DNA from: a virus
Lineage: Duplodnaviria > Heunggongvirae > Uroviricota > Caudoviricetes
Virus record (IMG/VR): IMGVR_UViG_2778261460_000002
Direction: 5' to 3' (one strand)
Length of the DNA: 38,593 bases
Made by a program: the position numbers and the translations under genes. This document shows, one piece after another, positions 1-37,859 of the stretch. The notes beneath the pieces were generated by a model, which was not told the DNA's origin, made no database searches, and saw nothing but the letters and a program-made list of their open reading frames with translations. Numbering within the stretch: the first letter of the stretch is position 1; the number at the start of each line of letters is the position of its first letter.

Positions 1-1053
1 TTACGGGGTAATGCCAACCGCTGCCGCCACTTTGTCGCCACTTGGCAGCGTTGCCAGAGGATTGAAACGGAGCGCCGTTTCCAGATGATCCGGTGCCAGA
101 TGTGCGTAACGCATAGTCATTTTTATATCGTGGTGTCCGAGAATTTTTTGTAAGGCCAGAATGTTTCCACCCGACATCATGAAGTGCGCCGCAAACGTAT
201 GGCGCAGAACGTGTGTGAGTTGACCGCGAGGGAGCACGATAGACGTTTTTTCCATCACGGATAAAAATTGAAAATAGCAGTCTGTGAAGAAATTGAACCC
301 ATCAAGCGCCATGATCTCTTCGTAAAGCTCTTTACTGATAGGGATGCTTCTGTTTTTCTTCCCCTTCGTTCTGACAAAGGTAATTCGGTATTTGGTCACC
401 TGTGAGCGAGTAAGATTTACGGCTTCACGCCAGCGTGCGCCTGTGCTTAAGCATATCTTAACTACCAGTGCCAGAATTGGGTCCTGACGTTTGCAATCAG
501 CCAGCAATTCAACAATCTGCTCATGGGTAAGCCATGCCATCTCTTTTTCTGCGATGGTGAATTTTCGCATGTTCTCCAGTGGGTTCGGATACGACCATTC
601 GCCCAGACGGGATAGTTCGCTAAAAACACTACTTAGATAGCTTTGCTCCAGGTTAATGGTGACCGGGCTTGCTCCTTTCTTCCATTTCTCGCTGAAGTAG
701 ATCTCGCCTGTCAGGCGTTTATCTCGATAGTGGGCAAACATTTTAGAGGTGAGATCGGTTGCAAGAGGATTGCCCAGAGCGTCAACCATCAACAGCAATT
801 TGTCATAGACATGCTGCCCAGCTGTCAGAGATTTACCATGTAGTTTGAACCATAGTTCAACCACGTCTTTCAGTGTTCGACGATCCACTGATTCACCCAG
901 CCAGGGCTTTGCTTCGGTTTCTTCCATCGTGTGACGCTCAAAAGCCAGAGCTTCGCCTTTGGTGGCGAATTGTTTACGCACACGACGTCCACTACGTCCG
1001 GCGGGGTAACATTCGCAAAGCCATTTTCCTGTGGTGAGTTTTCGTACTGCCAT
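1..1053 (-). CDS. int: Phage integrase (tyrosine recombinase), P2/186 Int-like
   Basis: 350-aa ORF with tyrosine-recombinase C-terminal motifs (HVLRHTFA, MRYAHL); sits at the prophage end as in P2/186. Stop codon is at positions 3..1. Confidence 0.9.
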   Translation of the reverse strand: MAVRKLTTGKWLCECYPAGRSGRRVRKQFATKGEALAFERHTMEETEAKPWLGESVDRRTLKDVVELWFKLHGKSLTAGQHVYDKLLLMVDALGNPLATDLTSKMFAHYRDKRLTGEIYFSEKWKKGASPVTINLEQSYLSSVFSELSRLGEWSYPNPLENMRKFTIAEKEMAWLTHEQIVELLADCKRQDPILALVVKICLSTGARWREAVNLTRSQVTKYRITFVRTKGKKNRSIPISKELYEEIMALDGFNFFTDCYFQFLSVMEKTSIVLPRGQLTHVLRHTFAAHFMMSGGNILALQKILGHHDIKMTMRYAHLAPDHLETALRFNPLATLPSGDKVAAAVGITP

Positions 1054-1077
1054 AAAAAAGCCCTCATATCAGAGGGC
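1054..1077 (-). terminator. Rho-independent terminator on the minus strand (stem gccctc/gagggc followed by a U6 run) abutting the int start codon
   Basis: Plus strand reads aaaaaa-gccctc-atatca-gagggc at 1054-1077; on the minus strand this is a hairpin followed by six U residues, ending at the int ATG (1053). Confidence 0.55.
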
Positions 1078-1136
1078 TAAATTTAACTGTATATACAACC
1101 AGTAATCAATGTGTGATTACTATGAAACATACATTG

Positions 1137-2813
1137 CTAAGCAACATGCAGTTCATCGTTGGCGGAAGTTGCTGCTTTGCGCTCTTGCTCAATCGCCAGT
1201 GACTCTCTATATTCTTTCGCTTCCGCAAACATTGTCCATTGTGCGTTGATGTTCATATCTTCAATAACAGACTTAATTTCTTTAATATTTACGTTGAAAA
1301 ACTCTTTTCGTGAGTTAATTTTATTGACCTGTTTTTCGTTGAAGACTTTATGCAGATGATTTTCTAATGATGGTGCATCATCACTATAAATCATCGCATG
1401 AACATCGAACGAAAAAGGAACACTAGCATCACCGAGTTCACGAACACGATCAAGTGGTTCAAGGCGGCGTGTCATTCCAATTTTATATACATCTTCGCCA
1501 AATGAGCCAATATTACTAATTATATAAACGTGGCCTGATCTAGTTTGTTGAGCCATAGAAATAGCTCGTTGGTTTTTAGCTTCAGCTTCTTCATATTTTA
1601 ACTGTAGTTCAGCTATTTTTTGCTCTAAAGCTAAGCGTTGTTCTTCATTTGCAAGCATAAGCTCTTTTGTTGCTTTATTTATAGCTTGCTGAATAGCTTT
1701 CTCTTCTTTTTCAGCTTCTTTTATCGCTTTTTCATACTCCCTACGAGCTCTTTCCTCTTCACGAAGTTGTTCTTTAATCCTTCTTTGCTCTTCTTTTTCT
1801 TCGAGCATAATTTCATTAACTGCAACTCCCCATTTTAGCTCGTTGAGTCGAGCTTGAAGATAGATGTCACTTATTTTTGCGGACCTAAAGGCAGAACCAT
1901 TGTAATTTACAAGTTGAAACGCATCTTTTATCTCTTGGGAAAGTTTTCCAAAATTGTTGTGTTTGACTTTTGATAAAATACTGTCAACTCTTCCATTGAA
2001 GGCATCTAAAACAAAGTTGATAGCAGTATTACGCCTGTTTTGTTCAACATAATCACACGAAGCAGCTTTATTAGTTTTTATTAATGATTTTGTTAACTCC
2101 CTGGCTTTTTGTAATTCCTTACCTGCATCTGTAAACTCATAATTTTCTGCCAATTCATCGAGAACGCTACGGTTAGGGATGATCCATTCATCACCATAAC
2201 CTTCAATTTTATTTTTCATTGATTTGGCAACTGCTTCATATTTTTCTGCAAACTCTTTAGCTTCATATGCTGAACCAGCAATCTCTTTTGCTCTTTCTTC
2301 TGCATCGGAAATAATTTTCACTGCATTGTCATTAGCATTTGAGATCAGCTCATTTGCTTTACTATTGGCATTATCAAGACGTTCTTTAGCTTTCAGGCGT
2401 GCATCGCGAGCGTCTTTAGTAATTGCTATAGCTTCGCTATTAGCGTTGCTTATTTTTATCTGAGCTTGATAATTTGCTTCGTTTACTGTCTTAGCAGCCT
2501 TTATTTGGGCTTCTTCTATTTTTTGCCTGGCTATTGAGTCTGCATTTTTTATCTTATTCTCTGCTTCCATCACTGCGCTGTGCAATTCTACGTATTGCCA
2601 TAATGGCGCAGCTCGTCCTTCAAGCTCTGATAGATCTCGTACAGTCTGTGCTAATTCTTCTTGATTTTCTTTCAGTTGGTTGGAAAGGGCTATGTTGTTA
2701 GCTGTCAAGGTATTTATAGCCGCTTTATGTTTTTTGCTTTGCTTAAATAATATTACAGCTAGAATGGGGGCGAGAAATGCTAATAAGAATATAACGATGG
2801 AAAATGAATTCAT
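1137..2813 (-). CDS. Membrane-anchored coiled-coil protein with C-terminal T5orf172 (GIY-YIG-like) domain; DUF4041-type architecture; candidate anti-phage/moron gene
   Basis: 558-aa ORF. N-terminal hydrophobic helix (SIVIFLLAFLAPILAVILF), long E/K/A/Q-rich coiled-coil region, C-terminal segment GHVYIISNIGSFGEDVYKIGMTRRLEPLDRVRELG typical of T5orf172. AT-rich relative to the phage backbone. Start codon 20 nt downstream of the cI stop with a GGA Shine-Dalgarno, same strand as cI and int. Confidence 0.7.
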   Translation of the reverse strand: MNSFSIVIFLLAFLAPILAVILFKQSKKHKAAINTLTANNIALSNQLKENQEELAQTVRDLSELEGRAAPLWQYVELHSAVMEAENKIKNADSIARQKIEEAQIKAAKTVNEANYQAQIKISNANSEAIAITKDARDARLKAKERLDNANSKANELISNANDNAVKIISDAEERAKEIAGSAYEAKEFAEKYEAVAKSMKNKIEGYGDEWIIPNRSVLDELAENYEFTDAGKELQKARELTKSLIKTNKAASCDYVEQNRRNTAINFVLDAFNGRVDSILSKVKHNNFGKLSQEIKDAFQLVNYNGSAFRSAKISDIYLQARLNELKWGVAVNEIMLEEKEEQRRIKEQLREEERARREYEKAIKEAEKEEKAIQQAINKATKELMLANEEQRLALEQKIAELQLKYEEAEAKNQRAISMAQQTRSGHVYIISNIGSFGEDVYKIGMTRRLEPLDRVRELGDASVPFSFDVHAMIYSDDAPSLENHLHKVFNEKQVNKINSRKEFFNVNIKEIKSVIEDMNINAQWTMFAEAKEYRESLAIEQERKAATSANDELHVA

Positions 2814-2833
2814 TTTTAAATCCTTTTACTATA

Positions 2834-3430
2834 TTAATTTGAAACTATTGTACTTCTTATACAAGCAACTACTTCAATATCAGAAAATGCACATTCAAAG
2901 CTATTCTCTGTACTTGTAATTTTAATCATACCTTTTGGAAGCTTTGTGATTTTTCGAATGGAATAGGTTCCGTCGATGTTGATTAACCAGTGCCCATCAA
3001 GTACTTCAGAAAATTTTTGATCACAAATGTATGTGACGAGCCCATCCTGAATAACAATTGGTGATGAAAGATTTGCAGGAAGAAATGATGAATCGAAGAC
3101 ATATGAACCATCTTCAATCATTTTGCCTGCGGTAAGGCGAAACTTGGCAAGCTCTTCTGTAGCTGCTGTCAGCGAGCTTTGCTTAAGGCCTTGCCCGGTG
3201 GTTAACCATTTCAGTGAGGTTCCTGTTTCAAGAGCACATTGGATTATCCAGTCTGCAGGAAACGTATCCCGCAAATACCTGTTCGCCAGAGTGCTTTTTG
3301 ATACTTCCAAGTGATCAGCTAAAGCCTGTCGTGTCGTAAAGCCATAAGCTTCGACTAATCGCTCAATCGCAGCCTTACCACCTTTATTGGGATTTATTTT
3401 GATCTCATTTGGGTACTTTGATGTTGACAT
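2834..3430 (-). CDS. cI: Immunity repressor, phage 186 CI-like
   Basis: 198-aa ORF divergent from the apl/cII lytic operon; N-terminal helix-turn-helix-like region, size and position match 186 CI. Confidence 0.7.
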   Translation of the reverse strand: MSTSKYPNEIKINPNKGGKAAIERLVEAYGFTTRQALADHLEVSKSTLANRYLRDTFPADWIIQCALETGTSLKWLTTGQGLKQSSLTAATEELAKFRLTAGKMIEDGSYVFDSSFLPANLSSPIVIQDGLVTYICDQKFSEVLDGHWLINIDGTYSIRKITKLPKGMIKITSTENSFECAFSDIEVVACIRSTIVSN

Positions 3431-3477
3431 ATCTCTTTTGCGATCCTAGTATCAATTTTGTCCCCATTTGGGTACTT
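3406..3477 (+). repeat. Two exact copies of CATTTGGGTACTT (3406-3418 and 3465-3477) flanking the lytic promoter; candidate repressor/Apl operator elements
   Basis: 13-bp direct repeat read directly from the sequence, 59 bp apart, bracketing the -35/-10 of the putative pR. Confidence 0.4.
3424..3452 (+). promoter_or_regulatory. Putative early lytic promoter pR: -35 TTGACA (3424-3429), 17-bp spacer, -10 TAGTAT (3447-3452)
   Basis: Perfect -35 hexamer with canonical spacing to a near-consensus -10, upstream of apl and oriented toward it. Confidence 0.55.
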
Positions 3478-3525
3478 GTCACGATTACTACAGGCTCACC
3501 ACAAGCCAATAGGAGATGTTGCATC

Positions 3526-5103: not shown

Positions 5104-5330
5104 TGGCTGATGCAATGGATCTCGTACAGCAGCGCGTTGAAGAAGAACGCCAGCGCCATATCCGTGCTGCCCGTGCCAAAACGCCGGGCGTGTCCCGCGT
5201 GCTTTGCGTTGAGTGTGAAGCGCCAATTCCGCCAGCACGCCGCCGTGCCATTCCGGGTGTGCAGCTTTGCATTACATGTCAGGAAATCGCAGAGCTGAAA
5301 GGCAAACATTACAACGGAGGTGCTGTATGA
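5103..5330 (+). CDS. TraR/DksA-family C4 zinc-finger protein
   Basis: 75 aa with CVEC-x17-CITC zinc-finger spacing; start overlaps the upstream stop (TAATG). Confidence 0.55.
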   Translation: MADAMDLVQQRVEEERQRHIRAARAKTPGVSRVLCVECEAPIPPARRRAIPGVQLCITCQEIAELKGKHYNGGAV

Positions 5331-6184
5331 GCACCATCTTGAAATGGGCGGGAAATAAAACCGCCGTAATGTCCGAACTGAAAAAACATCTTCCTGCTGG
5401 TCCGCGACTAGTTGAACCTTTCGCGGGTTCCTGTGCTGTGATGATGGAGACGGATTATCCCTGCTATCTGGTTGCGGATATTAATCCTGATTTAATCAAC
5501 CTCTATAAAAAGGTTGCCGCTGATTGTGAATCGTTTATATCTCGCGCCAAAGTTTTATTTGAGATCGCAAACAGGGAGGTGGCTTATTACAACATAAGGC
5601 AGGAGTTTAATTACTCAACTGAAATTACTGATTTCATGAAAGCGGTATATTTCCTGTATCTCAATCGTCACGGTTACCGTGGGTTATGTCGCTATAACAA
5701 GAGCGGGCATTTCAACATTCCCTACGGTAATTATAAAAATCCGTATTTCCCTGAAAAAGAAATTCGCGCTTTTGCAGAAAAAGCCCAGCGAGCAACGTTT
5801 ATCTGCGCCAGCTTTGATGAAACGCTGGCGATGTTGAAGGCGGGGGATGTGGTGTATTGCGATCCGCCTTATGACGGTACGTTTTCCGGCTATCACGCTG
5901 ACGGCTTTACTGAAGATGACCAGTATCACCTGGCATCCGTTCTTGAACATCGGTCATCAGAAGGACATCCGGTCATTGTTTCTAACAGTGACACATCCCT
6001 GATCCGTTCGCTGTATCGCAATTTTACTCACCACTATATCAAGGTAAAACGCAGCATCGGCGTAGCAGCTGGTGAGAGTAAATCAGCAACAGAAATCATT
6101 GCTGTTTCCGGGCCGCGCTGCTGGGTGGGATTTGATTATTCGCGTGGCGTGGATAGTTCTGCCGTGTACGGAGTACGTGCATGA
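5327..6184 (+). CDS. dam: DNA adenine methyltransferase (Dam-like, N6-adenine, probable GATC specificity)
   Basis: 285-aa product from ATG 5327 ([11 protein letters not shown]...); N-terminal AdoMet-binding region (EPFAGSCAV) and catalytic DPPY motif; ATGA overlap with the upstream stop. Confidence 0.75.
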
Positions 6185-8595
6185 GCCATGCCGATATGAG
6201 CAACTGCTGCGGCTTTAACGAGGCTGCCGCATCGTTCTCATGGAACAGTCCGAAAAAGGCCATTAACCCTTATCTGGACCCGGCGGAAGTTGCGCCGGTT
6301 TCTGCGCTTTCAAACCTGATCACTCTGTACGCTGCCGATAACGAGCAGGAACAACTGCGCCGCGAGGCACTGAGTGATCAGGTCTGGGAGCGTTATTTCT
6401 TTAATGAATCCCGTGATCCTGTCCAACGCGAAATAGAGCAGGATAAGCTCATTAGCCGGGCAAAGTTGGCGCATGAGCAGCAGCGTTTTAACCCGGACAT
6501 GGTCATTCTGGCAGACGTCAGCGCCCAGCCCTCCCATATCAGCAAGCCGCTGATGCAACGTATTGAATACTTCAGCAGCCTGGGCAGGCCAAAGGCTTAT
6601 TCCCGCTATTTACGTGAGACGATTAAGCCATGTCTGGAACGACTGGAGCATGTACGCGACAGCCAGCTATCTGCATCTTTTCGTTTTATGGCAAGCCATG
6701 TAGGGCTGGACGGCCTGCTGATTCTGCCTGAAATGAGTCAGGATCAGGTGAAACGCCTGTCTACCCTTGTCGCTGCGCATATGAGCATGTGCCTTGATGC
6801 AGCTTGTGGTGATTTGTATGCCACCGATGACGTTAAGCCAGAAGAAATCCGCAAGACATGGGAAAAGGTGGCAGCGGAAACCCTGCGTCTGGATGTCATC
6901 CCGCCTGCGTTTGAGCAACTCCGTCGGAAAAGAAACCGCCGTAAACCCGTGCCCTATGAACTCATTCCGGGTTCGCTGGCGCGTATGTTGTGCGCCGACT
7001 GGTGGTACCGGAAATTATGGAAAATGCGTTGCGAATGGCGGGAAGAGCAGTTGCGTGCTGTCTGCCTGGTCAGCAAAAAAGCATCTCCCTATGTCAGCTA
7101 TGAAGCCGTGATGCATAAACGTGAGCAGCGCCGCAAGTCACTGGAGTTTTTCCGTTCTCATGAACTGGTGAACGAAGAGGGCGACACGCTGGATATGGAA
7201 GACGTGGTAAACGCCAGCAGCAGCAACCCGGCGCACCGCCGCAATGAGATGATGGCCTGTGTTAAAGGTCTGGAGCTTATCGCGGAAATGCGCGGTGACT
7301 GCGCCGTTTTCTACACCATTACCTGTCCGTCACGTTTCCATTCCACGCTCAATAACGGCAGACCAAACCCAACCTGGACAAATGCGACGGTAAGACAAAG
7401 CAGCGATTATCTGGTCGGCATGTTTGCTGCATTTCGTAAGGCGATGCACAAAGCCGGGTTGCGCTGGTATGGCGTGCGGGTGGCTGAGCCGCATCATGAC
7501 GGTACAGTTCACTGGCACCTGTTGTGTTTCATGCGCAAAAAAGACCGCCGCGCCATTACTGCATTGTTGCGTAAGTTTGCCATCCGTGAAGACCGCGAGG
7601 AACTGGGTAATAACACTGGTCCACGCTTTAAATCTGAGCTGATAAACCCGCGCAAAGGAACGCCGACAAGCTACATCGCGAAATACATCAGTAAGAACAT
7701 TGACGGGCGTGGTCTGGCTGGCGAGATCAGCAAGGAAACGGGTAAATCCCTGCGTGATAACGCTGAATACGTTAATGCCTGGGCGTCTCTGCATCGTGTT
7801 CAGCAATTCCGCTTCTTTGGTATTCCGGGACGTCAGGCTTACCGTGAACTTCGCTTGCTGGCTGGTCAGGCGGCAAGGCAACAGGGTGACAAAAAAGCAG
7901 GTGCGCCGGTACTGGATAACCCGCGTCTTGATGCCATTCTGGCTGCTGCTGATGCTGGTTGTTTTGCCACCTACATCATGAAGCAGGGCGGCGTACTGGT
8001 TCCCCGCAAATATCACCTCATCAGAACCGCTTATGAAATCAACGAAGAGCCAACCGCCTATGGCGATCACGGTATTCGTATTTATGGCATCTGGTCACCC
8101 ATTGCAGAGGGCAAGATCTGCACTCATGCAGTGAAGTGGAAAATGGTTCGTAAGGCCGTTGACGTTCAGGAGGCGGCAGCCGACCAGGGCGCTTGCGCCC
8201 CTTGGACTCGTGGCAATAACTGTCCCCTTGCTGAAAATTTGAACCAACAGGAGAAAGATAAATCAGCTGATGGAGACACCAGAACGGACATTACCCGCAT
8301 GGATGACAAGGAGTTGCACGATTACCTGCACAGTATGAGCAAAAAAGAGCGCCGGGAACTGGCAGCAAGGTTACGCCAGGTGAAGCCGAAAAGGCGTAAA
8401 GACTACAAACAGCGAATTACAGATCATCAGCATCAGCAGCTCGTCTATGAACTGAAGTCCAGAGGATTTGATGGCAGCGAGAAAGAGGTCGATTTACTCC
8501 TTCGCGGTGGCAGTATTCCGTCAGGAGCAGGCCTGCGTATTTTCTATCGGAACCAGCGTTTGCAGGAAGATGATAAGTGGCGGAACCTGTATTAA
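6181..8595 (+). CDS. Replication initiation protein A (P2 gpA / 186 replication endonuclease-like)
   Basis: 804-aa ORF after the early operon; size and position match P2 A; ATGA overlap with dam stop. Confidence 0.8.
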
Positions 8596-8689
8596 TTACG
8601 CGGGTTAACAATTCGTGCTCTTAATAATACCAGGCATATCAGGCTGATGAACGTAAAAAAACGTTTTACATCAGTAAGATTATTATATA

Positions 8690-8705
8690 CTGTAAATATA
8701 AACAG
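8690..8705 (+). promoter_or_regulatory. LexA (SOS) box CTGTAAATATAAACAG
   Basis: Exact match to the CTGT-N8-ACAG LexA operator consensus, about 45 nt upstream of the tum-like start, inside an AT-rich promoter-like region. Confidence 0.7.
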
Positions 8706-8748
8706 TGTTTATGCATACAGTATTGTTTGTGGTGTCATAGGAGGAAAG

Positions 8749-8937
8749 ATGCAGGACTATTTTTTGGAGTCTTTGAAGCTCCAGCGCATTGATTTTTTTC
8801 TTAAGCTTGTAGCGGCTAGTGAGTGTAGTGATGAAGAGAAGGGGCTGGCTCTGCAGTGGGTTTCTGAATTGACTGATGAACTCATGGCAAAAATCAGAAG
8901 CCACGAATACAACCGCTCAATGGATGTCATCAGCTGA
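8749..8937 (+). CDS. Small SOS-regulated protein, candidate Tum-like antirepressor
   Basis: 62-aa product from ATG 8749 with AGGAGG RBS (8739-8744); directly downstream of the LexA box; position matches the 186 tum locus. Confidence 0.45.
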   Translation: MQDYFLESLKLQRIDFFLKLVAASECSDEEKGLALQWVSELTDELMAKIRSHEYNRSMDVIS

Positions 8938-8947
8938 GGTGACTTTT

Positions 8948-9181
8948 ATGCGCATTGAAATAATGATCGATAAAGAGCAGAAGATTAGCCAGTCTACCCT
9001 GGACGCTCTGGAGTCCGAGCTTTACCGCAACCTGCAACCCATCTATCCCAAGACAGCTATCCGCATCCGTAAAGGGTCGGCAAACGGCGTTGAGCTGAGT
9101 GGCTTAAAGCTTGATGAAGACAAAAAGCGGGTGATGGAAATTATGCAGCAGGTTTGGGAAGACGACAGATGGCTGCACTAA
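8948..9181 (+). CDS. DinI-family protein
   Basis: 77-aa product MRIEIMIDKEQK...IMQQVWEDDRWLH aligns by eye with E. coli DinI (MRIEVTIAK ... ILQETWE ... W); second gene in the LexA-boxed operon. Confidence 0.65.
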   Translation: MRIEIMIDKEQKISQSTLDALESELYRNLQPIYPKTAIRIRKGSANGVELSGLKLDEDKKRVMEIMQQVWEDDRWLH

Positions 9182-9254
9182 GGAACGTTCCTGATGTAAG
9201 AACTTGATTCTGACGTCAGCAAGGTTGAACAACGAGAGTAGCGAGGCGTTAGCC

Positions 9255-9515
9255 ATGGGTAAAAAAGACAGTAATCACCAGATTATTTATCGGGGCCAGG
9301 TGCTGGAACGGTTTACCCCTGGCGGCTGGGTCTTCTTTCAACGCCCAAAGGAGTGTGGCGGAGGTTTTTAGTTGGGCCGCACCTATGAAGACTGCTTCTG
9401 GCTTGAGCTGGAATTCCCCGTTTCGCTATATGACGGCCTGGAGTTTTTGATGGAAGTCACCAGGGTAGAGCAGAGAAGTGATGAGGTTGACGCGAATTAT
9501 TCCCTGTTTGATTAA
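9255..9515 (+). pseudogene. Small ORF interrupted by an in-frame amber codon (TAG at 9369-9371); probable pseudogene
   Basis: ATG at 9255 opens 38 codons, TAG, then the same frame stays open for 47 more codons to TAA at 9513-9515. Confidence 0.3.
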
Positions 9516-9534
9516 AAATGTATTAGCTTATAAT
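9507..9534 (+). promoter_or_regulatory. Putative sigma70 promoter for the 203-aa gene (-35 TTTGAT/TTGATT, -10 TATAAT at 9529-9534)
   Basis: Perfect -10 hexamer with a plausible -35 at 15-16 bp spacing, about 30 nt upstream of the ATG at 9564. Confidence 0.4.
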
Positions 9535-9563
9535 GGAATACTATTTTTGCAGGTGGGGGCGCA

Positions 9564-10175
9564 ATGGATTTAGTCTTTAAAATTCTGGCTTCGTTGGGTG
9601 GGGTGTCTTTTGTTGCATCTGGCATATTTGTTTGGATCGGGAAAGTTTATTTAGAAAGATATAAGTCGCGGCTAAACAAAGATATTGCTGAATTTCAATC
9701 ACAACTGAGTGCAACTAATGAAAGAATAAAGGCTAAGTTAGACAATTCTGTTTATGTAACGAAAGCGTATTTTGATAAGGAGTTATCAGCATATAGTCTC
9801 ATTTGGAATTCGATGTTTGAAACCAGAGAAAGCGTGCTTAAGCTGAGGCCTGCGCTGGATCATTTTGACCCCAACGAACCATTTGAAGAGAGAAAATTTA
9901 GAAGGTTGAAAGTTTTTTTCGATGCATTTAATACTTTTGTTACAAGTGTTGAGTCTAACAAACCGTTCATCTCACCAGAGGTTTATATAATCTTGGACCG
10001 TTTCCGGAAGGAATGCCTTTCAGAGTCAATATCGTTTCAGCATGGCGATCCAGAATTTGACTGGCAAAATTATTGGAAAGAGGCAGAGTTGAACCGTACA
10101 ACCATCACCAAGCTTTTTGATGAGACGTGTGATGCAATTCGAGACAGGATGCACACATTAACTGTGGTTACGTAG
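9564..10175 (+). CDS. Single-pass membrane protein of unknown function; accessory cargo in the old/tin-equivalent position
   Basis: 203-aa ORF with N-terminal hydrophobic helix (ILASLGGVSFVASGIFVWIG) and a soluble domain with no recognisable motifs; AT-rich; own promoter and terminator. Confidence 0.6.
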   Translation: MDLVFKILASLGGVSFVASGIFVWIGKVYLERYKSRLNKDIAEFQSQLSATNERIKAKLDNSVYVTKAYFDKELSAYSLIWNSMFETRESVLKLRPALDHFDPNEPFEERKFRRLKVFFDAFNTFVTSVESNKPFISPEVYIILDRFRKECLSESISFQHGDPEFDWQNYWKEAELNRTTITKLFDETCDAIRDRMHTLTVVT

Positions 10176-10266
10176 TTTTCCAAAAAGTCTCGATGCCCGC
10201 TTTGGCGATTGTGCATGTCTATGCCGCATGAATCCGCATGATCGTTTGAGGATCGTTTTAGCTGAG

Positions 10267-10290
10267 GCCCGCTAGGAATGGCGGGCTTTT
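10267..10290 (+). terminator. Rho-independent terminator (gcccgc-loop-gcgggc-tttt)
   Basis: Perfect 6-bp GC stem with 8-nt loop followed by TTTT, about 90 nt downstream of the 203-aa gene. Confidence 0.55.
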
Positions 10291-10335
10291 GCTTATGTCA
10301 TGCAGGCGCATGAAAACCACTACATAAAGCGGGCA

Positions 10336-10354
10336 GGCGTGGCGGGGATACGAG
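10336..10354. other. Probable cos site (cohesive-end region) GGCGTGGCGGGGATACGAG
   Basis: Matches from memory the start of the P2/186 cohesive end (GGCG[A/T]GGCGGGGA...), with a GCGCGCT tract after it as in P2; lies between the replication side and the portal gene. Not verified by alignment. Confidence 0.45.
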
Positions 10355-10367
10355 CGCGCGCTCATGG

Positions 10368-10396
10368 TTGAATTAATGAAATTATGGTGTTAAATA
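10368..10396 (+). promoter_or_regulatory. Putative sigma70 promoter for the 232-aa gene: -35 TTGAAT (10368-10373), 17-bp spacer, extended -10 TGtTAAATA (10388-10396)
   Basis: Read directly from the sequence; about 70 nt upstream of the ATG at 10465, which has a GGGAGGAG RBS. Confidence 0.45.
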
Positions 10397-10464
10397 GGCT
10401 AGCTTTTTAAGTCGTGAATATTCAATTTTTCAACTCATTTTTTTCATAGGGAGGAGTAATTGAC

Positions 10465-11163
10465 ATGGTTATGTTAGTGGATGACTGTCCACGATGTGGA
10501 TCACAAAAAATAGCGTTTGATGTTAATGGGCTGAATTGCACTAGGGTTTACAATGCATTGGGCGGGGGTAAAACATACGAGTACGAGGTCTATTGTGTTT
10601 GCCGAGAGTGTCATAAAACGACAATGTTTCTTTGCAGACCTTTAACGAAAAATAAAACTTTAGATGGCTATAATTGGAAAAGTGGAATATTCGGCTTAAA
10701 GGAAGTTGCAGAGGTTGTTAGGCCTATATCACCGGCAGACTTAGCAGTAGAGGAGCCACCAGAGTTCTTACCTGAGCATATCAATAGTGCATATGAGGAA
10801 GGGGCGAAATGTTTGGCTATAGGTTGTTATAATGCAGCAGCAACCATGTTTAGGCTTTGCCTTGATTATGCCACAAAAGGACTTCTTCCTGATGGGGAGC
10901 AAGGGCCTGCGCAAAAAATAAGGAGAAGCCTAGGGTTAAGAATGGAGTGGTTATTTGATAATCATCTACTGCCTGAAGCTTTAAGGGAACTAGCTGAATG
11001 CGTTAAAGATGACGGAAATGATGGAGCGCATGAAGGTATTTTGGATAAAGCTGCTGCTGAGGATCTTGAAGATTTTACCTATCTTTTTTTAGAACGGCTT
11101 TACACTGAACCTCAACGCCTTATCGAAGCCAAGACAAGGCGTGAACAAAGAAGAAACAAATAA
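10465..11163 (+). CDS. Zinc-ribbon protein with DUF4145/HEPN-like C-terminal domain; accessory cargo between cos and the portal gene
   Basis: 232-aa ORF; N-terminal CPRC-x35-CRECH Cys cluster; C-terminal helical region with GNDGAHEG resembling the RN..AHG motif of DUF4145 as recalled (arginine replaced). AT-rich, own promoter. Confidence 0.55.
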   Translation: MVMLVDDCPRCGSQKIAFDVNGLNCTRVYNALGGGKTYEYEVYCVCRECHKTTMFLCRPLTKNKTLDGYNWKSGIFGLKEVAEVVRPISPADLAVEEPPEFLPEHINSAYEEGAKCLAIGCYNAAATMFRLCLDYATKGLLPDGEQGPAQKIRRSLGLRMEWLFDNHLLPEALRELAECVKDDGNDGAHEGILDKAAAEDLEDFTYLFLERLYTEPQRLIEAKTRREQRRNK

Positions 11164-11171
11164 GTTCGGAA

Positions 11172-19944: not shown

Positions 19945-20796
19945 TTATTTCATTTCGTGTGGCATATTTATGGCTTTAATTTTTTCGTGGTAATGATTAA
20001 ACTCAATATGAGCATTGGTAAAATTAGATTCAAATGTATTCATTAAATTGGAATATAATGATTCATATGATAAGGATACTTTTTTTCCATTTTTTTCTGC
20101 AGTTGTGCTAATGTACCTATGTACTGCAGAAAAAAGAAAATGACCTCTAAGCCACTTTCTGTATTCTATCGATTTTGATTTGAAAGATGAATCGATGTTA
20201 TCTGGTTCCACACCTAATTTTTCAATGATGGTGTTTTTGTAACTCGTGATTTTTTGCTCGCAAATTTCATTTGATTTTCTAGATTTCATGAAACGATCTG
20301 CACTGTCACCAATAACTGAAATGCCTTTTCTATAAATATGATTGTATATATCAAGTTTTATTAGGGGTTCCATTTTGGTATAAAAGTCTTCTGTCCAAGA
20401 ATCGACGTTGACATCGTTCATTATCTTTTGAGGTAATTTTCCGAGAGTTTTTATTGCCTTATATATGCCTGTTTTGTCAATAAACGTGTTTTCGATGGAG
20501 TGCCCATAAGTTTTTACAATGCGACTATCAGCGTTTTCCTCATTTTCAAATGTAGTGAAGTCTGCATCACATGCAATTATAATTTGAAGATCTTCATCAG
20601 TAACTCTATCAATATATTTTTTTAATTCTTCACAGCCGCCAACATCTTTGATTTCAACCTTTAATGAACTAGCTTTATTAAAGATGATTTCCCAAAAGCA
20701 AATATCATCTGGGCCTTCAACATAAACCATGGCTTCAGCTTGGTAAAATAAATTCATTACATTTTCTGCTTCGGCAGAATAATGGAAATCATCCAT
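19945..20796 (-). CDS. DUF4435/Toprim-like nuclease, PARIS AriB-like (OLD-family Toprim fold)
   Basis: Open frame extends to 20880 (311 aa). The ATG at 20796 overlaps the upstream stop as ATGGATGA, so 283 aa is more likely. Toprim-like acidic motifs YVEGPDD and IIACDADF. Very AT-rich. Confidence 0.55.
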   Translation of the reverse strand: MDDFHYSAEAENVMNLFYQAEAMVYVEGPDDICFWEIIFNKASSLKVEIKDVGGCEELKKYIDRVTDEDLQIIIACDADFTTFENEENADSRIVKTYGHSIENTFIDKTGIYKAIKTLGKLPQKIMNDVNVDSWTEDFYTKMEPLIKLDIYNHIYRKGISVIGDSADRFMKSRKSNEICEQKITSYKNTIIEKLGVEPDNIDSSFKSKSIEYRKWLRGHFLFSAVHRYISTTAEKNGKKVSLSYESLYSNLMNTFESNFTNAHIEFNHYHEKIKAINMPHEMK

Positions 20797-22048
20797 GAAC
20801 CAATTTCTCCATATCAAAGATTGCATTTCGATATTTAGAAGCCACTTCTGGTGAATGCGTAGCGGCGATAATTTGCGCATTAGGATTAAGTTGTTTGATT
20901 GCAGGTATTATTTTTCGTTGCCATGCAATATGTAGCGATAATTCTGGTTCATCAGTAAGATAGATGAAAGGTTTGTTTTGCTGTAGCAAAGTTTCAATAA
21001 AAAGAATTAATAGCTGTTTTTCACCAGACGATAAATTACTATGGCTAATCGGCCCATGCTCGTTTTCTATTACTAGCTCACCGGAGATAAAATTAAATTT
21101 TTTATCGGTTATGAACTCATGTAATGTTTCTAAAAATAGATTTATAGGAAGAAATATGTTTTTTATTTTCTCCTCGGATTTTAAAGACATCTTTATAATT
21201 CTTTGCGTCTTTCGTAATGCCTCAAATGATCTGTAATCTACATTTAAAATATTTCTGTTATTTTTTTCTGCAAGTCGTAATTCTTCAAATGTTTTGGCAA
21301 TAGATTCAACGTGAAAGTTAATCTTCTTTCTGACATCACTATCAAAAGCTCCAAGCTGAGAATATGCAGCTATTAAATTTCTACGTTCTTTTTCTTTATC
21401 AAAAGAAAAGTTAAATGTGTCATCGATACCATCTTCTTTACTATAAAGAATAGAAGCAAGAACCTCTTTCTGTAATATTGCAGAAACATCACGAGCTCTT
21501 TGTGATAAATAAAGTTGATATTTTGTTAGGTTCTGCAATAATTGTTCTAATCGGTAATCAACAGGGTTGATTAATTTTGAGCCATATTTGTCTCTGATTT
21601 CAAAATCTTCACCGCTTCTAAGTCGGTAAACTGATAGAGAAGATAAAGCAACTAATTTATCTAACTCTAATTTAAGTTTTTCAACGTCTTCCTGATATTT
21701 TCTCCTCATATAAATAGGTAGTCTACGATCTTCAAAGGATCTGATAATATATTTCTTTCTAGAAATTGTATATTCAAACGTAGGCAAAGCTTTAGTTATG
21801 TCAAATTTACTCACAACTTTTATTGTTTTAGTTTTGCTTCCTTCTTTTATTTTTATTGTTACATTATCAAAACTATTCTCATTTAGTGATTCGAGTTCTA
21901 ATGCCAGAACTGAGTGAAGAATATTCATAAAGGTTGTTTTACCGGTCCCATTTCGACCAATAATAATATTTACATCTTCATTAAATGAACATGATGCATT
22001 TAGTCTTCCCCAAAAACCTTCAATCTTGACACTAGATAATCTAAACAT
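20789..22048 (-). CDS. ABC-type ATPase (AAA_15/AAA_21-like), PARIS AriA-like
   Basis: 419 aa; Walker A GRNGTGKTT, Walker B-like IYLTDEPE, H-loop AATHSPEV; translationally coupled to the downstream DUF4435 gene. Confidence 0.6.
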   Translation of the reverse strand: MFRLSSVKIEGFWGRLNASCSFNEDVNIIIGRNGTGKTTFMNILHSVLALELESLNENSFDNVTIKIKEGSKTKTIKVVSKFDITKALPTFEYTISRKKYIIRSFEDRRLPIYMRRKYQEDVEKLKLELDKLVALSSLSVYRLRSGEDFEIRDKYGSKLINPVDYRLEQLLQNLTKYQLYLSQRARDVSAILQKEVLASILYSKEDGIDDTFNFSFDKEKERRNLIAAYSQLGAFDSDVRKKINFHVESIAKTFEELRLAEKNNRNILNVDYRSFEALRKTQRIIKMSLKSEEKIKNIFLPINLFLETLHEFITDKKFNFISGELVIENEHGPISHSNLSSGEKQLLILFIETLLQQNKPFIYLTDEPELSLHIAWQRKIIPAIKQLNPNAQIIAATHSPEVASKYRNAIFDMEKLVHG

Positions 22049-35526: not shown

Positions 35527-37212
35527 TTATCCTAATCCTGGCCATACCATGACGATGATTGTCCCTGCCAGCGTCAGCAGGACGTTGGCGATTGCGTAGG
35601 TGCCCGCATAGCCCAGCGCAGGGATGTTACTGCGAGCTGTATCACTGATGATCTCCATTGCCGGCGCGCAGGTGCGTGCGCCCATCATTGCGCCGAACAA
35701 CAGTGCGCGGTTCATTCGCAATACATAAGCACCGAACAAGAAACAGATAACCACGGGCACAAGACTGACAATTAATCCGGCAATCAACATCTGACCGCCA
35801 ATCGCGCCCAGGCCGTTATTAATACCGCTACCGGCGCTCAGACCAACGCCTGCCATAAACACCATCAAGCCGAACTCTTTCACCATGCTTAATGCACCTT
35901 GCGGAATGTAACCGAAGGTCGGGTGGTTAGCACGCATAAAGCCCAGCATAATTCCGGCGAATAACAACCCGGCAGCGTTCCCCATGCCGAAACTGAATGT
36001 GCTGAACTGGAAGGTGATCATCCCGATCATCAGCCCAATAACAAAGAAGGCGCAAAATGCCAGCAGGTCAGTGACCTGGCTGTGAATCGAGATAAAGCCG
36101 ATGCGATCGGCGATGGTTTTTACGCGACGGGCATCACCGCTGACTTGTAAAACGTCACCTTTGTTAAGCACGACGTTGTCATCTATCGGCATCTCAATCT
36201 GGCTACGAATGACGCGGTTAAGGAAGCAACCGTGATCGGTCAACTTCAGTTGTGCGAGACGTTTACCTACAGCGTTATGGTTTTTAACGACCACTTCTTC
36301 AGTGACGATACGCATGTCGAGAAGGTCACGATCGAAAACTTCTTTACCGTTACGGAAGCTGGGATCGAGTCGGGCATGGGCGTCGGGATAGCCTACCAAC
36401 GCTATTTCATCGCCCATTTGTAGCACGGCATCACCGTCTGGATTTGCAAGAATCCCGTTACGTCGAATACGTTCAATGTAGCAGCCGGTTTGTCGATAAA
36501 TACCCAGTTCACGCAGATTTTTGCCGTCGGTCCAGGCCACGAGCTCCGGGCCGACGCGATAGGCGCGGATCACCGGTAAATAAACCTTACGGTTGGCATC
36601 AGTGTCCAGGCCACGTTCGCGGGCGATTTGCTGGGCGCTGGTCTGTAAGTCCTGATGCTGCAATTTCGGCAAGTAACGCGCACCAACAATCAAACTCACC
36701 AGACCGATTAAATAGGTTAAGGCATACCCGAGGCTCAGATTATCCAGTGCCAGTGAGAGCTGCCTGCTTTCCATGCCGGAATGACGCAGTGTATCGCCAG
36801 CACCGACCAGAACCGGTGTCGACGTCATAGAGCCTGCTAACATACCGGCCGTCAGGCCAATATCCCAGCCAAACAGCTTACCTAACCCTAAGGCGATCAC
36901 CAGCGCACTGCCAACCATCACCAGTGCTAACATTAGGTAATTTTTCCCATCGCGAAAAAAAATGGAAAAAAAGTTCGGTCCGGCTTCGACCCCGACGCAG
37001 AAAATAAACAGCATAAAGCCAAGATTAAGCGCATCGGTGTTAATGCTGAAATGTTGTTGGCCTAATAACAGCGATACGACTAAAACGCCAATGGAATTAC
37101 CCAGTTGGATCGAACCAAGTCGTAACTTTCCGAGACATAGCCCAAGCGCGAGGACCACAAATAATAACAGAATGTAATTCCCATTTAACAATTCGGCGAC
37201 GTTTATATTCAC
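35527..37212 (-). CDS. ybjL: Putative transport protein YbjL (AAE-family transporter)
   Basis: 561-aa polytopic membrane protein with two membrane domains flanking a cytoplasmic region; matches E. coli YbjL as recalled. Confidence 0.85.
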
Positions 37213-37481
37213 GGAGGCTAACTTCTTGTTTACTAGTAAGCTGTTGAAAGAAATGGTAATTTACGATAATGTTTTTTACCAGAATTCAGGGCGCAGATTC
37301 ATTCAGCGCACCTAAACGATAGTAAAGTAACAATATATTTTACTAGTGTAATCACATTAGGTATCAACGGCTATATGAATTGCGTTGGCCTATATTAGCA
37401 TGGAATGCGAAGCGGCTTTATCTTACTGAACGCCACACTGGCGAAAAATGTGTTCGATAGACGCAGTGTCAGGAGGAACGA

Positions 37482-37859
37482 GTGAAACATAAACAACGTT
37501 GGGCGGGGGCAATCTGCTGTTTTGTCCTCTTCATTGTGGTGTGCCTTTTTCTGGCGACGCACATGAAAGGCGCTTTTCGGGCTGCCGGGCATCCTGAAAT
37601 CGGCTTGCTATTTTTCATTCTTCCTGGAGCAGTCGCCAGCTTCTTTTCACAGCGTAGAGAAGTCCTGAAACCTCTGTTTGGCGCAATGCTGGCGGCACCC
37701 TGTTCGATGCTCATTATGCGGCTGTTTTTTTCACCGACGCGCTCATTCTGGCAAGAGCTGGCATGGTTACTAAGCGCGGTGTTCTGGTGTGCGCTGGGGG
37801 CACTGTGTTTCTTATTTATCAGTAGTTTGTTTAAACCACAGCACAGAAAAAATCAGTAA
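37482..37859 (+). CDS. ybjM: Inner membrane protein YbjM
   Basis: 125-aa hydrophobic protein, conserved synteny ybjL-ybjM-grxA. Confidence 0.8.
   Translation: MKHKQRWAGAICCFVLFIVVCLFLATHMKGAFRAAGHPEIGLLFFILPGAVASFFSQRREVLKPLFGAMLAAPCSMLIMRLFFSPTRSFWQELAWLLSAVFWCALGALCFLFISSLFKPQHRKNQ

What the first reader, a model, noticed from the sequence alone, without database searches (positions are those of the whole stretch)
1137..2813. Membrane-anchored coiled-coil T5orf172/GIY-YIG-like protein inserted into the cI-int operon
186/P2-type phages normally have the repressor and integrase genes adjacent. Here a 1.7-kb AT-rich gene sits between them on the same strand, starting 20 nt after the cI stop with its own Shine-Dalgarno, so it is probably expressed from the lysogenic promoter in the prophage state, which is the expected arrangement for a prophage-encoded defence gene. 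The product combines an N-terminal TM helix, a long coiled coil and a C-terminal T5orf172 domain. From memory this resembles recently described membrane-associated DUF4041 plus GIY-YIG nucleases reported to attack incoming phage DNA (SNIPE-type); I cannot confirm homology without a search.
Basis: partly seen in the sequence, partly recalled or inferred. Interest (0 to 1): 0.8.

Follow-up and report, generated by a model that had tools for sequence, protein, structure and literature searches.

The report
SNIPE-family defence nuclease in prophage

Summary
Window 1137-2813 (- strand) is a 558-aa ORF at 36.8% GC. It starts 20 nt after the cI stop behind an AAGGA Shine-Dalgarno and lies upstream of int.

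The protein passes Pfam thresholds for DUF4041 (since renamed 'SNIPE'), T5orf172 and MUG113. It matches PADLOC's PD-Lambda-1 profile at E=4.7e-120. The identical protein (WP_001084068.1) is named 'SNIPE associated domain-containing protein' in newer RefSeq records.

Against a proxy for the experimentally studied SNIPE it is 49% identical over the C-terminal 293 residues. The catalytic Glu is conserved (E414 = window E484). A confident model of the C-terminal domain finds GIY-YIG nucleases (SLX1) as its best structural matches.

The N-terminal anchor and stalk are about 70 residues longer than in SNIPE and show no detectable similarity to it. The DUF4041 core is only about 28% identical. Phage range and membrane partner may therefore differ.

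The gene occurs in about 3% of complete E. coli genomes, apparently always with this cI allele. Sister prophages with near-identical Int carry Old or KAP-NTPase genes in the same slot. A defence hotspot between int and gpA has already been published.

Verdict: an untested member of a known family. Interest is low to moderate.

The parts
1137..2813 (-). SNIPE / PD-lambda-1 family gene, 558 aa (stop codon included)
   Evidence: ORF. PADLOC PD-Lambda-1 E=4.7e-120. Pfam DUF4041, T5orf172 and MUG113. Identical RefSeq protein WP_001084068.1 is named 'SNIPE associated domain-containing protein'.
2821..2825 (-). Shine-Dalgarno AAGGA, 7 nt before the ATG at 2813-2811
   Evidence: Read directly from the sequence.
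2745..2804 (-). Predicted transmembrane helix, residues 4-23 (FSIVIFLLAFLAPILAVILF), followed by KQSKKHK. By the positive-inside rule the N-terminus would be out and the rest cytoplasmic.
   Evidence: Hydropathy maximum 2.99. Hydrophobic N-terminus kept across the clade and in distant relatives. Topology is inferred, by analogy with the PhoA/LacZ data for SNIPE.
2205..2744 (-). Long alpha-helical stalk, residues 24-203. It is about 70 residues longer than in SNIPE and is the fastest-evolving part of the protein.
   Evidence: AF2 helix 2-203, with pLDDT mostly 60-86 up to about residue 170 and falling below 50 after that. No BLASTP similarity to the SNIPE proxy before residue 265. Non-synonymous and synonymous codon changes are about equal in codons 1-81. 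Only sub-threshold DivIVA/Scy/SMC coiled-coil hits.
1839..2204 (-). Globular DUF4041 ('SNIPE') region, residues about 204-325; Pfam core 267-322 (nt 1848-2015)
   Evidence: Pfam PF13250 at 46.6 bits against a gathering score of 27. Conserved motifs GYGD..P..S.LDELAE and DAFNGKVDS in 28 diverse relatives. About 28% identity to the SNIPE proxy.
1542..1838 (-). Charged linker helix, residues 326-424
   Evidence: AF2 helices 316-387 and 390-424. 47% identity to the SNIPE proxy.
1239..1541 (-). GIY-YIG (T5orf172/MUG113) nuclease domain, residues 425-525. The codon for E484, the equivalent of SNIPE catalytic E414, is at 1362-1364.
2834..3430 (-). 186-type CI repressor gene, directly upstream on the same strand. 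This cI allele appears to co-occur with the SNIPE-family gene.
   Evidence: Pfam Phage_CI_repr plus Phage_CI_C. 165 E. coli genomes carry this allele at 80% coverage or more, and 165 carry the SNIPE-family gene. The same pair is found in Klebsiella and Citrobacter.
1054..1078 (-). Terminator-like hairpin AGCCCTC-TGATAT-GAGGGCT plus T-run, ending at the int ATG. The 3' arm contains the only SD-like sequence for int (GAGGG).
   Evidence: Terminator scan. RNA fold z=-3.87 for the 101-nt leader. Kept with loop changes in L006, L017 and L018, and replaced by a different pairing stem (GCTCTCC/GGAGGGC) in L004, L019 and L020.
1..1053 (-). Tyrosine integrase gene downstream
   Evidence: Pfam Int_N plus Phage_integrase. 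98-100% identical Int in prophages that carry other cargo.
3424..3482 (.). Candidate interleaved promoter pair: rightward TTGACA-17-TAGTAT (3424-3452) and leftward GTGACA-16-CAAAAT (3482-3455). The leftward one would drive cI and the cargo.
   Evidence: Consensus scan only. Placement is analogous to pR/pL of phage 186. Not evidence of function.

Best explanation
The gene most likely encodes a SNIPE-type (PD-lambda-1 family) single-protein anti-phage defence.

Proposed mechanism. A short N-terminal helix anchors the protein in the inner membrane. A long helical stalk, the DUF4041 domain and a C-terminal GIY-YIG nuclease sit in the cytoplasm. By analogy with E. coli SNIPE, the membrane-tethered nuclease stays inactive toward host DNA. 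It cuts the DNA of a superinfecting phage as that DNA is injected. It is positioned by contacts of its N-terminal and DUF4041 parts with the injection machinery, meaning the tape measure protein and possibly an inner-membrane channel. The cell survives.

Expression. In the lysogen the gene is probably co-transcribed with cI from the lysogenic promoter, and the transcript mostly ends at the hairpin before int. The prophage would thus protect its host, and itself, constitutively.

Shown here: gene, domains, family membership, conserved catalytic residues, GIY-YIG fold, cargo status, gene order.

Inferred: membrane localisation and topology, nuclease activity, defence, phage range, transcription pattern.
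For: - PADLOC PD-Lambda-1 profiles match at E=4.7e-120 and 2.1e-116, covering residues 114-551.
- Pfam DUF4041, T5orf172 and MUG113 are all above gathering scores.
- RefSeq names the identical protein 'SNIPE associated domain-containing protein'. Newer Pfam calls PF13250 'SNIPE'.
- The proxy for SNIPE is a 500-aa E. coli protein (L002:5984-7486). It carries all nine residues named in the SNIPE paper at the stated positions and has the published gene length.
- The window protein is 49% identical to that proxy over 293 residues, E=3e-76. By region this is 69% in the nuclease domain, 47% in the linker and 28% in the DUF4041 core.
- SNIPE E414, whose mutation abolishes defence and toxicity, aligns with E484. 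E484 is invariant in 123 homologues.
- There is a TM-like helix at residues 4-23 with a positive flank, as in SNIPE, where the topology was shown experimentally.
- No terminator-like site lies between cI and the gene. One lies right after it.
- The same cI-gene-int order and spacing occur in Klebsiella, Citrobacter and two isolated phages.
- Sister prophages carry Old or PDC-S20 in the same slot.
- Distant PD-Lambda-1 homologues in S. thermophilus also defend.
Against: - No experiment exists for this protein or its 558-aa clade in the literature I could search.
- Activity cannot be assumed from homology. Two S. thermophilus PD-Lambda-1 homologues that are 98.5% identical differed completely in activity.
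- The N-terminal part, which in SNIPE is thought to mediate the ManYZ association, has no detectable similarity to SNIPE. The DUF4041 core is only about 28% identical. Targeting details may therefore not transfer.
- The full-length model is unreliable, with pLDDT 54.
- The promoter assignment rests only on consensus matches.
Confidence: 0.82

Rival explanations
1. The protein is an abortive-infection or toxin-like nuclease. On infection it is released or activated and degrades host as well as phage DNA, killing the infected cell instead of rescuing it.
For: SNIPE lacking its TM helix is highly toxic and cuts the host chromosome, so the family has the capacity. The window protein's anchor and stalk are different from SNIPE's. 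The same prophage also carries an AriA/AriB-like pair, a class known for abortive infection.
Against: The characterised family member gives direct defence with cell survival. The architecture (TM, DUF4041, GIY-YIG) is fully retained. Nothing in the sequence indicates a release mechanism.
Confidence: 0.07
2. The protein is a superinfection-exclusion factor that blocks DNA entry sterically at the inner membrane. The nuclease domain would be dispensable or inactive.
For: It is membrane-anchored, expressed from the immunity region and prophage-encoded, like classical exclusion proteins. The stalk and DUF4041 domain could bind the injection machinery (inference).
Against: The nuclease domain is the most conserved part: 69% identical to SNIPE, with few non-synonymous changes. 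All catalytic-type residues are invariant. That argues for selection on catalysis. SNIPE E414A loses defence.
Confidence: 0.05
3. The protein is a housekeeping or structural phage protein, such as a 'chromosome segregation ATPase', a DivIVA-like factor or a V-ATPase subunit H. These are the names given in some phage and JGI records.
For: Phage records KP12 and vB_EcoM-813R9 annotate it as 'chromosome segregation ATPase'. JGI names relatives 'vacuolar-type H+-ATPase subunit H'. There are weak DivIVA and SMC hits.
Against: Those hits are far below the curated cut-offs: DivIVA 14.7 against 28 bits, DivIVA_Wag31 23.3 against 260, SMC 15.5 against 729. They fall only in the coiled-coil segments. 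No P-loop or ATPase domain is found. The gene is absent from most related phages.
Confidence: 0.02
4. The protein is a selfish homing-type GIY-YIG endonuclease, the original context of T5orf172 genes in phage T5. It would be spreading the cI-cargo cassette rather than defending the host.
For: The T5orf172 domain is present. The gene sits at a recombination-prone slot where cassettes are exchanged between prophages with identical Int.
Against: Homing endonucleases are not membrane-anchored and lack DUF4041. The slot also holds unrelated cargo (Old, KAP NTPases), so the exchange does not depend on this gene.
Confidence: 0.02

Closest known systems
[quoted passage not shown] 2022, PMC9519451; Saxton et al. 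2026, PMC13190303)
   Same: - A single gene with the same order of parts: N-terminal TM helix, helical stalk, DUF4041, charged linker helix, GIY-YIG/T5orf172 nuclease.
- 49% identity over the C-terminal 293 residues, and 69% in the nuclease domain.
- Catalytic Glu conserved (E414 = E484).
- Prophage-borne.
   Different: - 558 aa against 500 aa. The stalk between the TM helix and the globular region is about 70 residues longer.
- Residues 1-264 show no BLASTP similarity to SNIPE.
- The DUF4041 core is only about 28% identical and lacks SNIPE's insertion (CTTQWTVEGSRAEGKKMT).
- SNIPE W257, where W257R strengthened binding to the Bas14 tape measure protein, is Lys (K327) here. That Lys is invariant in the clade.
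- SNIPE sits in the nin region of a lambdoid prophage. This gene sits between cI and int of a 186-like myovirus prophage.
- ManYZ association and phage range are untested.
The wider DUF4041 + T5orf172 family (PADLOC PD-Lambda-1, PHROG 1847), including the tested S. thermophilus PD-Lambda-1 EU01
   Same: The window protein fits the family consensus better than SNIPE itself does. It is 41-53% identical to most of 26 diverse representatives, against 36% for the SNIPE proxy, and it shares the GYGD..P..S.LDELAE and DAFNGKVDS motifs. PHROG 1847 matches at E=4e-132.
   Different: It belongs to the Enterobacteriaceae-specific 558-aa clade. No member of that clade has been tested, as far as I could find.
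Defence hotspots of P2-like prophages (Rousset et al. 2022, PMC9122126; Vassallo et al. 2022; NAR 2026, PMC13586616)
   Same: It is AT-rich cargo in a Peduoviridae prophage. [quoted passage not shown] Sister prophages carry Old and PDC-S20 there.
   Different: The classical hotspots are gpA-to-portal and the tail-gene (Z/fun) locus. Here the cargo lies inside the lysogenic transcription unit and appears to be exchanged together with the cI allele. I did not find that detail stated in the texts I read.
GIY-YIG nucleases with solved structures (SLX1, I-TevI, UvrC N-terminal domain, R.Eco29kI, PD-T4-3)
   Same: The predicted core fold matches, and the Tyr/Arg/Glu/Asn-type residues are conserved.
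   Different: Sequence identity is only 12-28%. No PDB entry is detectable by sequence or by profile search. The extra C-terminal helix (residues 533-557) and the membrane tether are specific to this family.

Membership tests
SNIPE / PD-lambda-1 | Whole-protein match to the family profile | tested here: met
   PADLOC PDLC03976 at E=4.7e-120 (399.8 bits, residues 114-550 on profile positions 35-481 of 491). PDLC03977 at E=2.1e-116.
SNIPE / PD-lambda-1 | Central DUF4041 (Pfam PF13250, now named 'SNIPE') domain | tested here: met
   46.6 bits against a gathering score of 27, residues 267-322. The precomputed label PF13250:SNIPE appears on orthologues.
SNIPE / PD-lambda-1 | C-terminal GIY-YIG (T5orf172) nuclease domain with the catalytic Glu (E414 in SNIPE) | tested here: met
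SNIPE / PD-lambda-1 | N-terminal membrane anchor within the first ~70 residues (present in about two thirds of homologues according to the paper) | tested here: met
   Hydrophobic residues 4-23, mean hydropathy 2.99, followed by KQSKKHK. The feature is conserved across the clade and in distant relatives. This is a prediction only.
SNIPE / PD-lambda-1 | Inner-membrane localisation with periplasmic N-terminus and cytoplasmic nuclease | not testable with these tools
   Needs PhoA/LacZ fusions or fractionation, as done for SNIPE.
SNIPE / PD-lambda-1 | Direct defence: cleavage of phage DNA during injection, with survival of the infected cell | not testable with these tools
   Shown for SNIPE only (and the abstract).
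SNIPE / PD-lambda-1 | Association with ManYZ and with siphovirus tape measure proteins | not testable with these tools
   The regions implicated in these contacts (N-terminal part, DUF4041 surface) are the least similar to SNIPE. I treat this as open.
GIY-YIG nuclease superfamily | Three-stranded sheet flanked by helices, carrying conserved Tyr, Arg, Glu and Asn | tested here: met
Prophage accessory (moron / defence hotspot) cargo, as opposed to 186-like backbone | Absent from close relatives, deviant composition, and replaced by other cargo at the same position | tested here: met
   Absent in 186 and RE-2010. GC is 0.368 against 0.50 for the window. About 165 of 1135 genomes with this int carry it. 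Old, PDC-S20 and other genes occupy the slot next to 98-100% identical Int.
SMC / 'chromosome segregation ATPase' (name used in phage records) | ATPase head domains and a family-level profile score | tested here: not met
   SMC_prok_A scores 15.5 bits against a cut-off of 729.4, within the coiled coil only. No P-loop family appears in Pfam.
DivIVA | Pfam or NCBIfam score above the curated cut-off | tested here: not met
   Pfam DivIVA scores 14.7 against 28 bits. NCBIfam DivIVA_Wag31 scores 23.3 against 260.

The most novel reading that the evidence does not exclude
The 558-aa enterobacterial clade may be a functionally distinct SNIPE subtype.

- Its unrelated anchor, its stalk about 70 residues longer and its divergent DUF4041 surface (for example Lys at the position of SNIPE W257) could dock it to a different inner-membrane entry route than ManYZ. 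That would give it a different phage range.
- It may travel as a two-gene 'immunity plus entry-nuclease' cassette (cI allele plus cargo) that is swapped as a whole between prophages sharing the same integrase.
- It may be transcribed from the lysogenic promoter and insulated from int by a terminator-like hairpin.
Probability: 0.4. Interest if true: 0.45.

Novelty: new member of a known kind. Interest (0 to 1): 0.25.

Why it matters
This adds little that is conceptually new. The family, its mechanism and the tendency of P2-like prophages to carry defence cargo are all published. Standard annotation already names this exact protein.

Its practical value is as a natural, widespread variant (about 3% of complete E. 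coli genomes; also found in Klebsiella, Citrobacter and Salmonella). It keeps the catalytic module of SNIPE but has a different anchor, stalk and DUF4041 surface. That makes it a convenient comparison for asking which parts of SNIPE set phage specificity and choice of membrane partner.

The cI-plus-cargo cassette next to a nearly invariant integrase is also a clean system for studying how immunity regions and defence genes are exchanged together.

Tried and rejected
1. Full-length AF2 model. With 51 close homologues it was poor (mean pLDDT 54, globular parts below 50). I used it only for the long helices.
2. PDB sequence searches. Both the single-sequence search and the profile search found nothing meaningful; the only hits were GpW and a quorum-sensing antiactivator at E>0.4. 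There is no solved close relative.
4. Exact identity of the SNIPE proxy. I could not confirm that L002:5984-7486 is RCP76574.1, because the accession was not among the 15 cluster members listed. I treat it as a proxy because its length (1503 nt) and all nine residues named in the paper match.
5. Borrowed anchor? I tested whether the N-terminal 264 residues come from a host membrane protein. A search of 1.84 billion representatives gave 321 hits. Of the ten longer (506-682 aa) hits checked against Pfam, seven carry DUF4041 plus T5orf172, two carry DUF4041 only, and one is an unrelated thioredoxin/NHL protein. There is no sign of mimicry. The DivIVA, Scy and SMC hits are sub-threshold coiled-coil noise.
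6. The shorter 477-aa annotation (start at Met82, no TM helix; P0052). I rejected it as the main product. The upstream 81 codons are conserved with third-position bias, the TM helix is conserved across genera, and the long ORF has a good SD.
7. Other cargo genes. The cargo of Klebsiella phage 4LV2017 (349 aa) and the post-int gene of RE-2010 (401 aa) gave no PADLOC or Pfam hit.
8. Python scripts. Searches failed on file naming. One search gave an empty alignment because of a record-name clash. They were redone.
Full report
OBSERVATION

The window has a single 558-aa ORF at 1137..2813 on the minus strand. It lies between a 198-aa ORF (2834..3430, -) and a 350-aa ORF (1..1053, -). Pfam identifies the flanking ORFs as a 186-type CI repressor (Phage_CI_repr plus Phage_CI_C) and a tyrosine integrase.

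The sequence shows the cI stop TAA at 2836-2834, a 20-nt spacer with AAGGA at 2825-2821, and the ATG at 2813. The gene has 36.8% GC, against 48.6% for int and 50% for the window.

It is under coding selection. Compared with the Klebsiella orthologue, substitutions concentrate at third codon positions. Synonymous codon changes outnumber non-synonymous ones about 4-5 to 1 in the DUF4041, linker and nuclease parts.

In phage 186 and in Salmonella phage RE-2010, cI and int abut. The statement that the gene sits where these phages normally have nothing is therefore correct.

WHAT THE GENE IS

Profile matches:
- Pfam gives DUF4041 (267-322, 46.6 bits), T5orf172 (427-520, 61.8 bits) and MUG113 (443-520, 70.7 bits), all above gathering scores.
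- PADLOC's two PD-Lambda-1 profiles match at E=4.7e-120 and 2.1e-116 over residues 114-551.
- PHROG 1847 matches at 4e-132.
- The identical protein, WP_001084068.1, is labelled 'DUF4041 domain-containing protein' in older RefSeq records and 'SNIPE associated domain-containing protein' in newer ones. The precomputed Pfam label for PF13250 on orthologues is now 'SNIPE'.

PD-lambda-1 was found by functional selection in E. coli ECOR26: RCP76574.1, a 1503-nt gene with DUF4041 at 197-252 and T5orf172 at 357-448 (Vassallo et al. 2022, PMC9519451). Saxton et al. (Nature 2026, PMC13190303) renamed it SNIPE.

What is known about SNIPE:
- Its GIY-YIG domain (catalytic E414) and its DUF4041 domain are both required for defence.
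- Removing the TM helix makes it attack the host chromosome.
- It cleaves lambda DNA during injection but not after prophage induction.
- It associates with ManYZ and with the tape measure protein.
- It acts on siphoviruses but not on myoviruses or podoviruses.

COMPARISON WITH THE CHARACTERISED PROTEIN

I did not have RCP76574.1 itself. A 500-aa DUF4041 gene from a lambdoid prophage (L002:5984-7486) has the published length. It also carries all nine residues named in the paper (E223, N250, L253, W257, E264, K305, I308, T319, E414) at exactly those positions. I used it as a proxy. The accession itself could not be confirmed.

The window protein is 49% identical to the proxy over 293 residues (265-555 against 196-487, E=3e-76). 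Identity by region:

| Region | Identity to SNIPE proxy |
|---|---|
| Nuclease domain | 69% |
| Linker helix | 47% |
| DUF4041 core | 28% |
| Residues 1-264 | nothing BLASTP detects |

E414 aligns with E484. SNIPE W257, where the W257R change strengthened binding to a tape measure protein, is Lys327 here.

In an alignment with 26 diverse full-length relatives, the window protein is closer to the family consensus (41-53% identity to most) than the SNIPE proxy is (36%). It shares strong motifs in an extended DUF4041 region from about residue 150 to 330. It therefore represents the mainstream of the family, and the studied SNIPE is a somewhat divergent member.

FOLD OF THE NUCLEASE DOMAIN

- A full-length AF2 model from close homologues was poor (pLDDT 54).
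- With 123 more diverse sequences, the C-terminal 140 residues modelled at pLDDT 90.9.
- Foldseek ranks Slx1 first, but without significance.
- Y430, R449, R450, E484, N497 and N500 are invariant.
- No solved structure is detectable by sequence or profile.

ANCHOR AND STALK

Residues 4-23 form the strongest hydrophobic stretch (2.99) and are followed by KQSKKHK. By the positive-inside rule this predicts the SNIPE topology. This is inference.

The stalk between the anchor and the globular region is about 180 residues, against about 110 in the proxy. It is the fastest-evolving part of the protein.

A search of 1.84 billion representatives with residues 1-264 found 321 relatives. Of the ten longer (506-682 aa) hits checked against Pfam, seven are themselves DUF4041 plus T5orf172 proteins, two carry DUF4041 only, and one is an unrelated thioredoxin/NHL protein. 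The anchor is therefore not visibly copied from a host protein.

The DivIVA, Scy and SMC hits are far below their cut-offs. They explain the misleading names 'chromosome segregation ATPase' and 'V-ATPase subunit H' found in some records.

GENOMIC CONTEXT

The same cI(198 aa)-gene(558 aa)-int order, with the same 20-nt gap between cI and the gene, occurs in:
- E. coli;
- Klebsiella;
- Citrobacter;
- two deposited phage genomes, KP12 and vB_EcoM-813R9.

Among 5426 complete E. coli genomes, 165 carry the gene and 165 carry this cI allele. A further 143 or so carry genes related to SNIPE proper.

The integrase allele is present in 1135 genomes. In most of them, homology to the window begins just after the gene's stop codon. 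Examples with 98-100% identical Int, at the same rcdA-ybjJ site, carry other cargo next to cI alleles that are only 45-56% identical:
- an Old homologue (PADLOC E=5.6e-234);
- KAP NTPases (PDC-S20);
- a DUF4917 gene (PDC-S21) placed after int.

So the gene is cargo in a variable slot, and cI and cargo appear to be exchanged together. A survey of P2-like prophages already lists a minor defence hotspot between integrase and primase, holding 8% of P2 systems (PMC13586616).

EXPRESSION

No terminator-like or promoter-like site separates cI from the gene. A 7-bp GC-rich hairpin plus T-run (1078-1054) lies between the gene and the int ATG. The 3' arm of that hairpin contains the only SD-like sequence for int.

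The hairpin is conserved in sister prophages. It occurs in two sequence versions that both pair.

The likeliest picture is a cI-cargo transcript from the lysogenic promoter that largely stops before int. Candidate promoters at 3424-3482 are consensus matches only. All of this is inferred.

MECHANISM AND CONFIDENCE

Best explanation (0.82): a SNIPE-type membrane-tethered GIY-YIG nuclease, expressed in the lysogen, that cuts superinfecting phage DNA at the point of entry.

- Shown here: family membership, domain integrity, catalytic residues, fold, cargo status.
- Not shown: localisation, activity, phage range.
- Caveats: S. thermophilus homologues that are 98.5% identical differ in activity. 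The parts of SNIPE implicated in partner choice are the ones least conserved here.

NOVELTY

This is a known family and mechanism. The protein is already named by standard pipelines, and the hotspot region is already reported. The specific 558-aa clade appears untested. Its tight pairing with one cI allele inside the lysogenic unit is a modest new detail. Rating: new member of a known kind; interest 0.25.

Noticed in passing
window 19945-22048 (- strand): There is a second AT-rich island (GC 0.30-0.33) inside the tail-gene region. It holds a 419-aa AAA_21/AAA_15 ATPase (PADLOC AriA, 5.7e-40) and an overlapping 311-aa DUF4435 protein (AriB, 3e-24). This is a PARIS-like pair at the classical second P2 hotspot.
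   Followed up: partly
window 8600-11170 (+ strand; ORFs 9564-10175 and 10465-11163): There is lower-GC cargo between the gpA-like replication endonuclease (6181-8595) and the portal-side genes, which is the classical P2 tin/old hotspot. The 232-aa ORF has DUF4145 (4.5e-07) and a weak PD-T7-4 hit (1.2e-06). The 203-aa ORF has no hit.
   Followed up: partly
window 1054-1136 (- strand); also L017, L018, L019, L020, L006, L004 upstream of int: The int leader of about 70-80 nt is conserved whatever cargo precedes it. It contains a possible promoter (TTGAyy-17 nt-TTAAAT) just before a hairpin plus T6 that ends at the int ATG and buries the GAGGG Shine-Dalgarno. The stem occurs in two versions (AGCCCTC/GAGGGCT and GCTCTCC/GGAGGGC), and both pair. 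This may insulate int from cI-cargo transcription and control int translation.
   Followed up: partly
L017:2255-5006, L018:2899-5001, L020:2869-4981, L019:4096-7171, L004:1851-3844: Prophages at the same rcdA-ybjJ site have 98-100% identical Int but different cI alleles (45-56% identity). They carry different cargo in the cI-int slot: an Old homologue, two PDC-S20 KAP NTPases, a 60-aa ORF, and an unknown 349-aa protein. L019 also has a DUF4917/PDC-S21 gene after int. The cI allele and the cargo seem to be swapped as one cassette.
   Followed up: partly
L010:7768-9255: In one Klebsiella genome a 495-aa reverse transcriptase gene (RVT_1, opposite strand, likely a group II intron) is inserted between the SNIPE-family gene and int.
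   Followed up: no
window 5267-6184 (+ strand): A Dam-like orphan DNA adenine methyltransferase (PADLOC oMTase, 9.4e-111) lies in the early operon just before gpA. It is present in many but not all relatives; for example it is absent in L006-L008.
   Followed up: no
window 35527-37859: The right end of the window is chromosomal: a ybjL-like Asp-Al_Ex/TrkA_C transporter and ybjM. The prophage therefore ends near 35.0-35.5 kb, and the window starts exactly at the int stop codon.
   Followed up: no
database entries for the window protein (P0052, 477 aa, 164 members): Many public annotations start this gene at Met82, which removes the TM helix. Others call it 'chromosome segregation ATPase' or 'V-type ATPase subunit H'. 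These look like annotation artefacts.
   Followed up: yes
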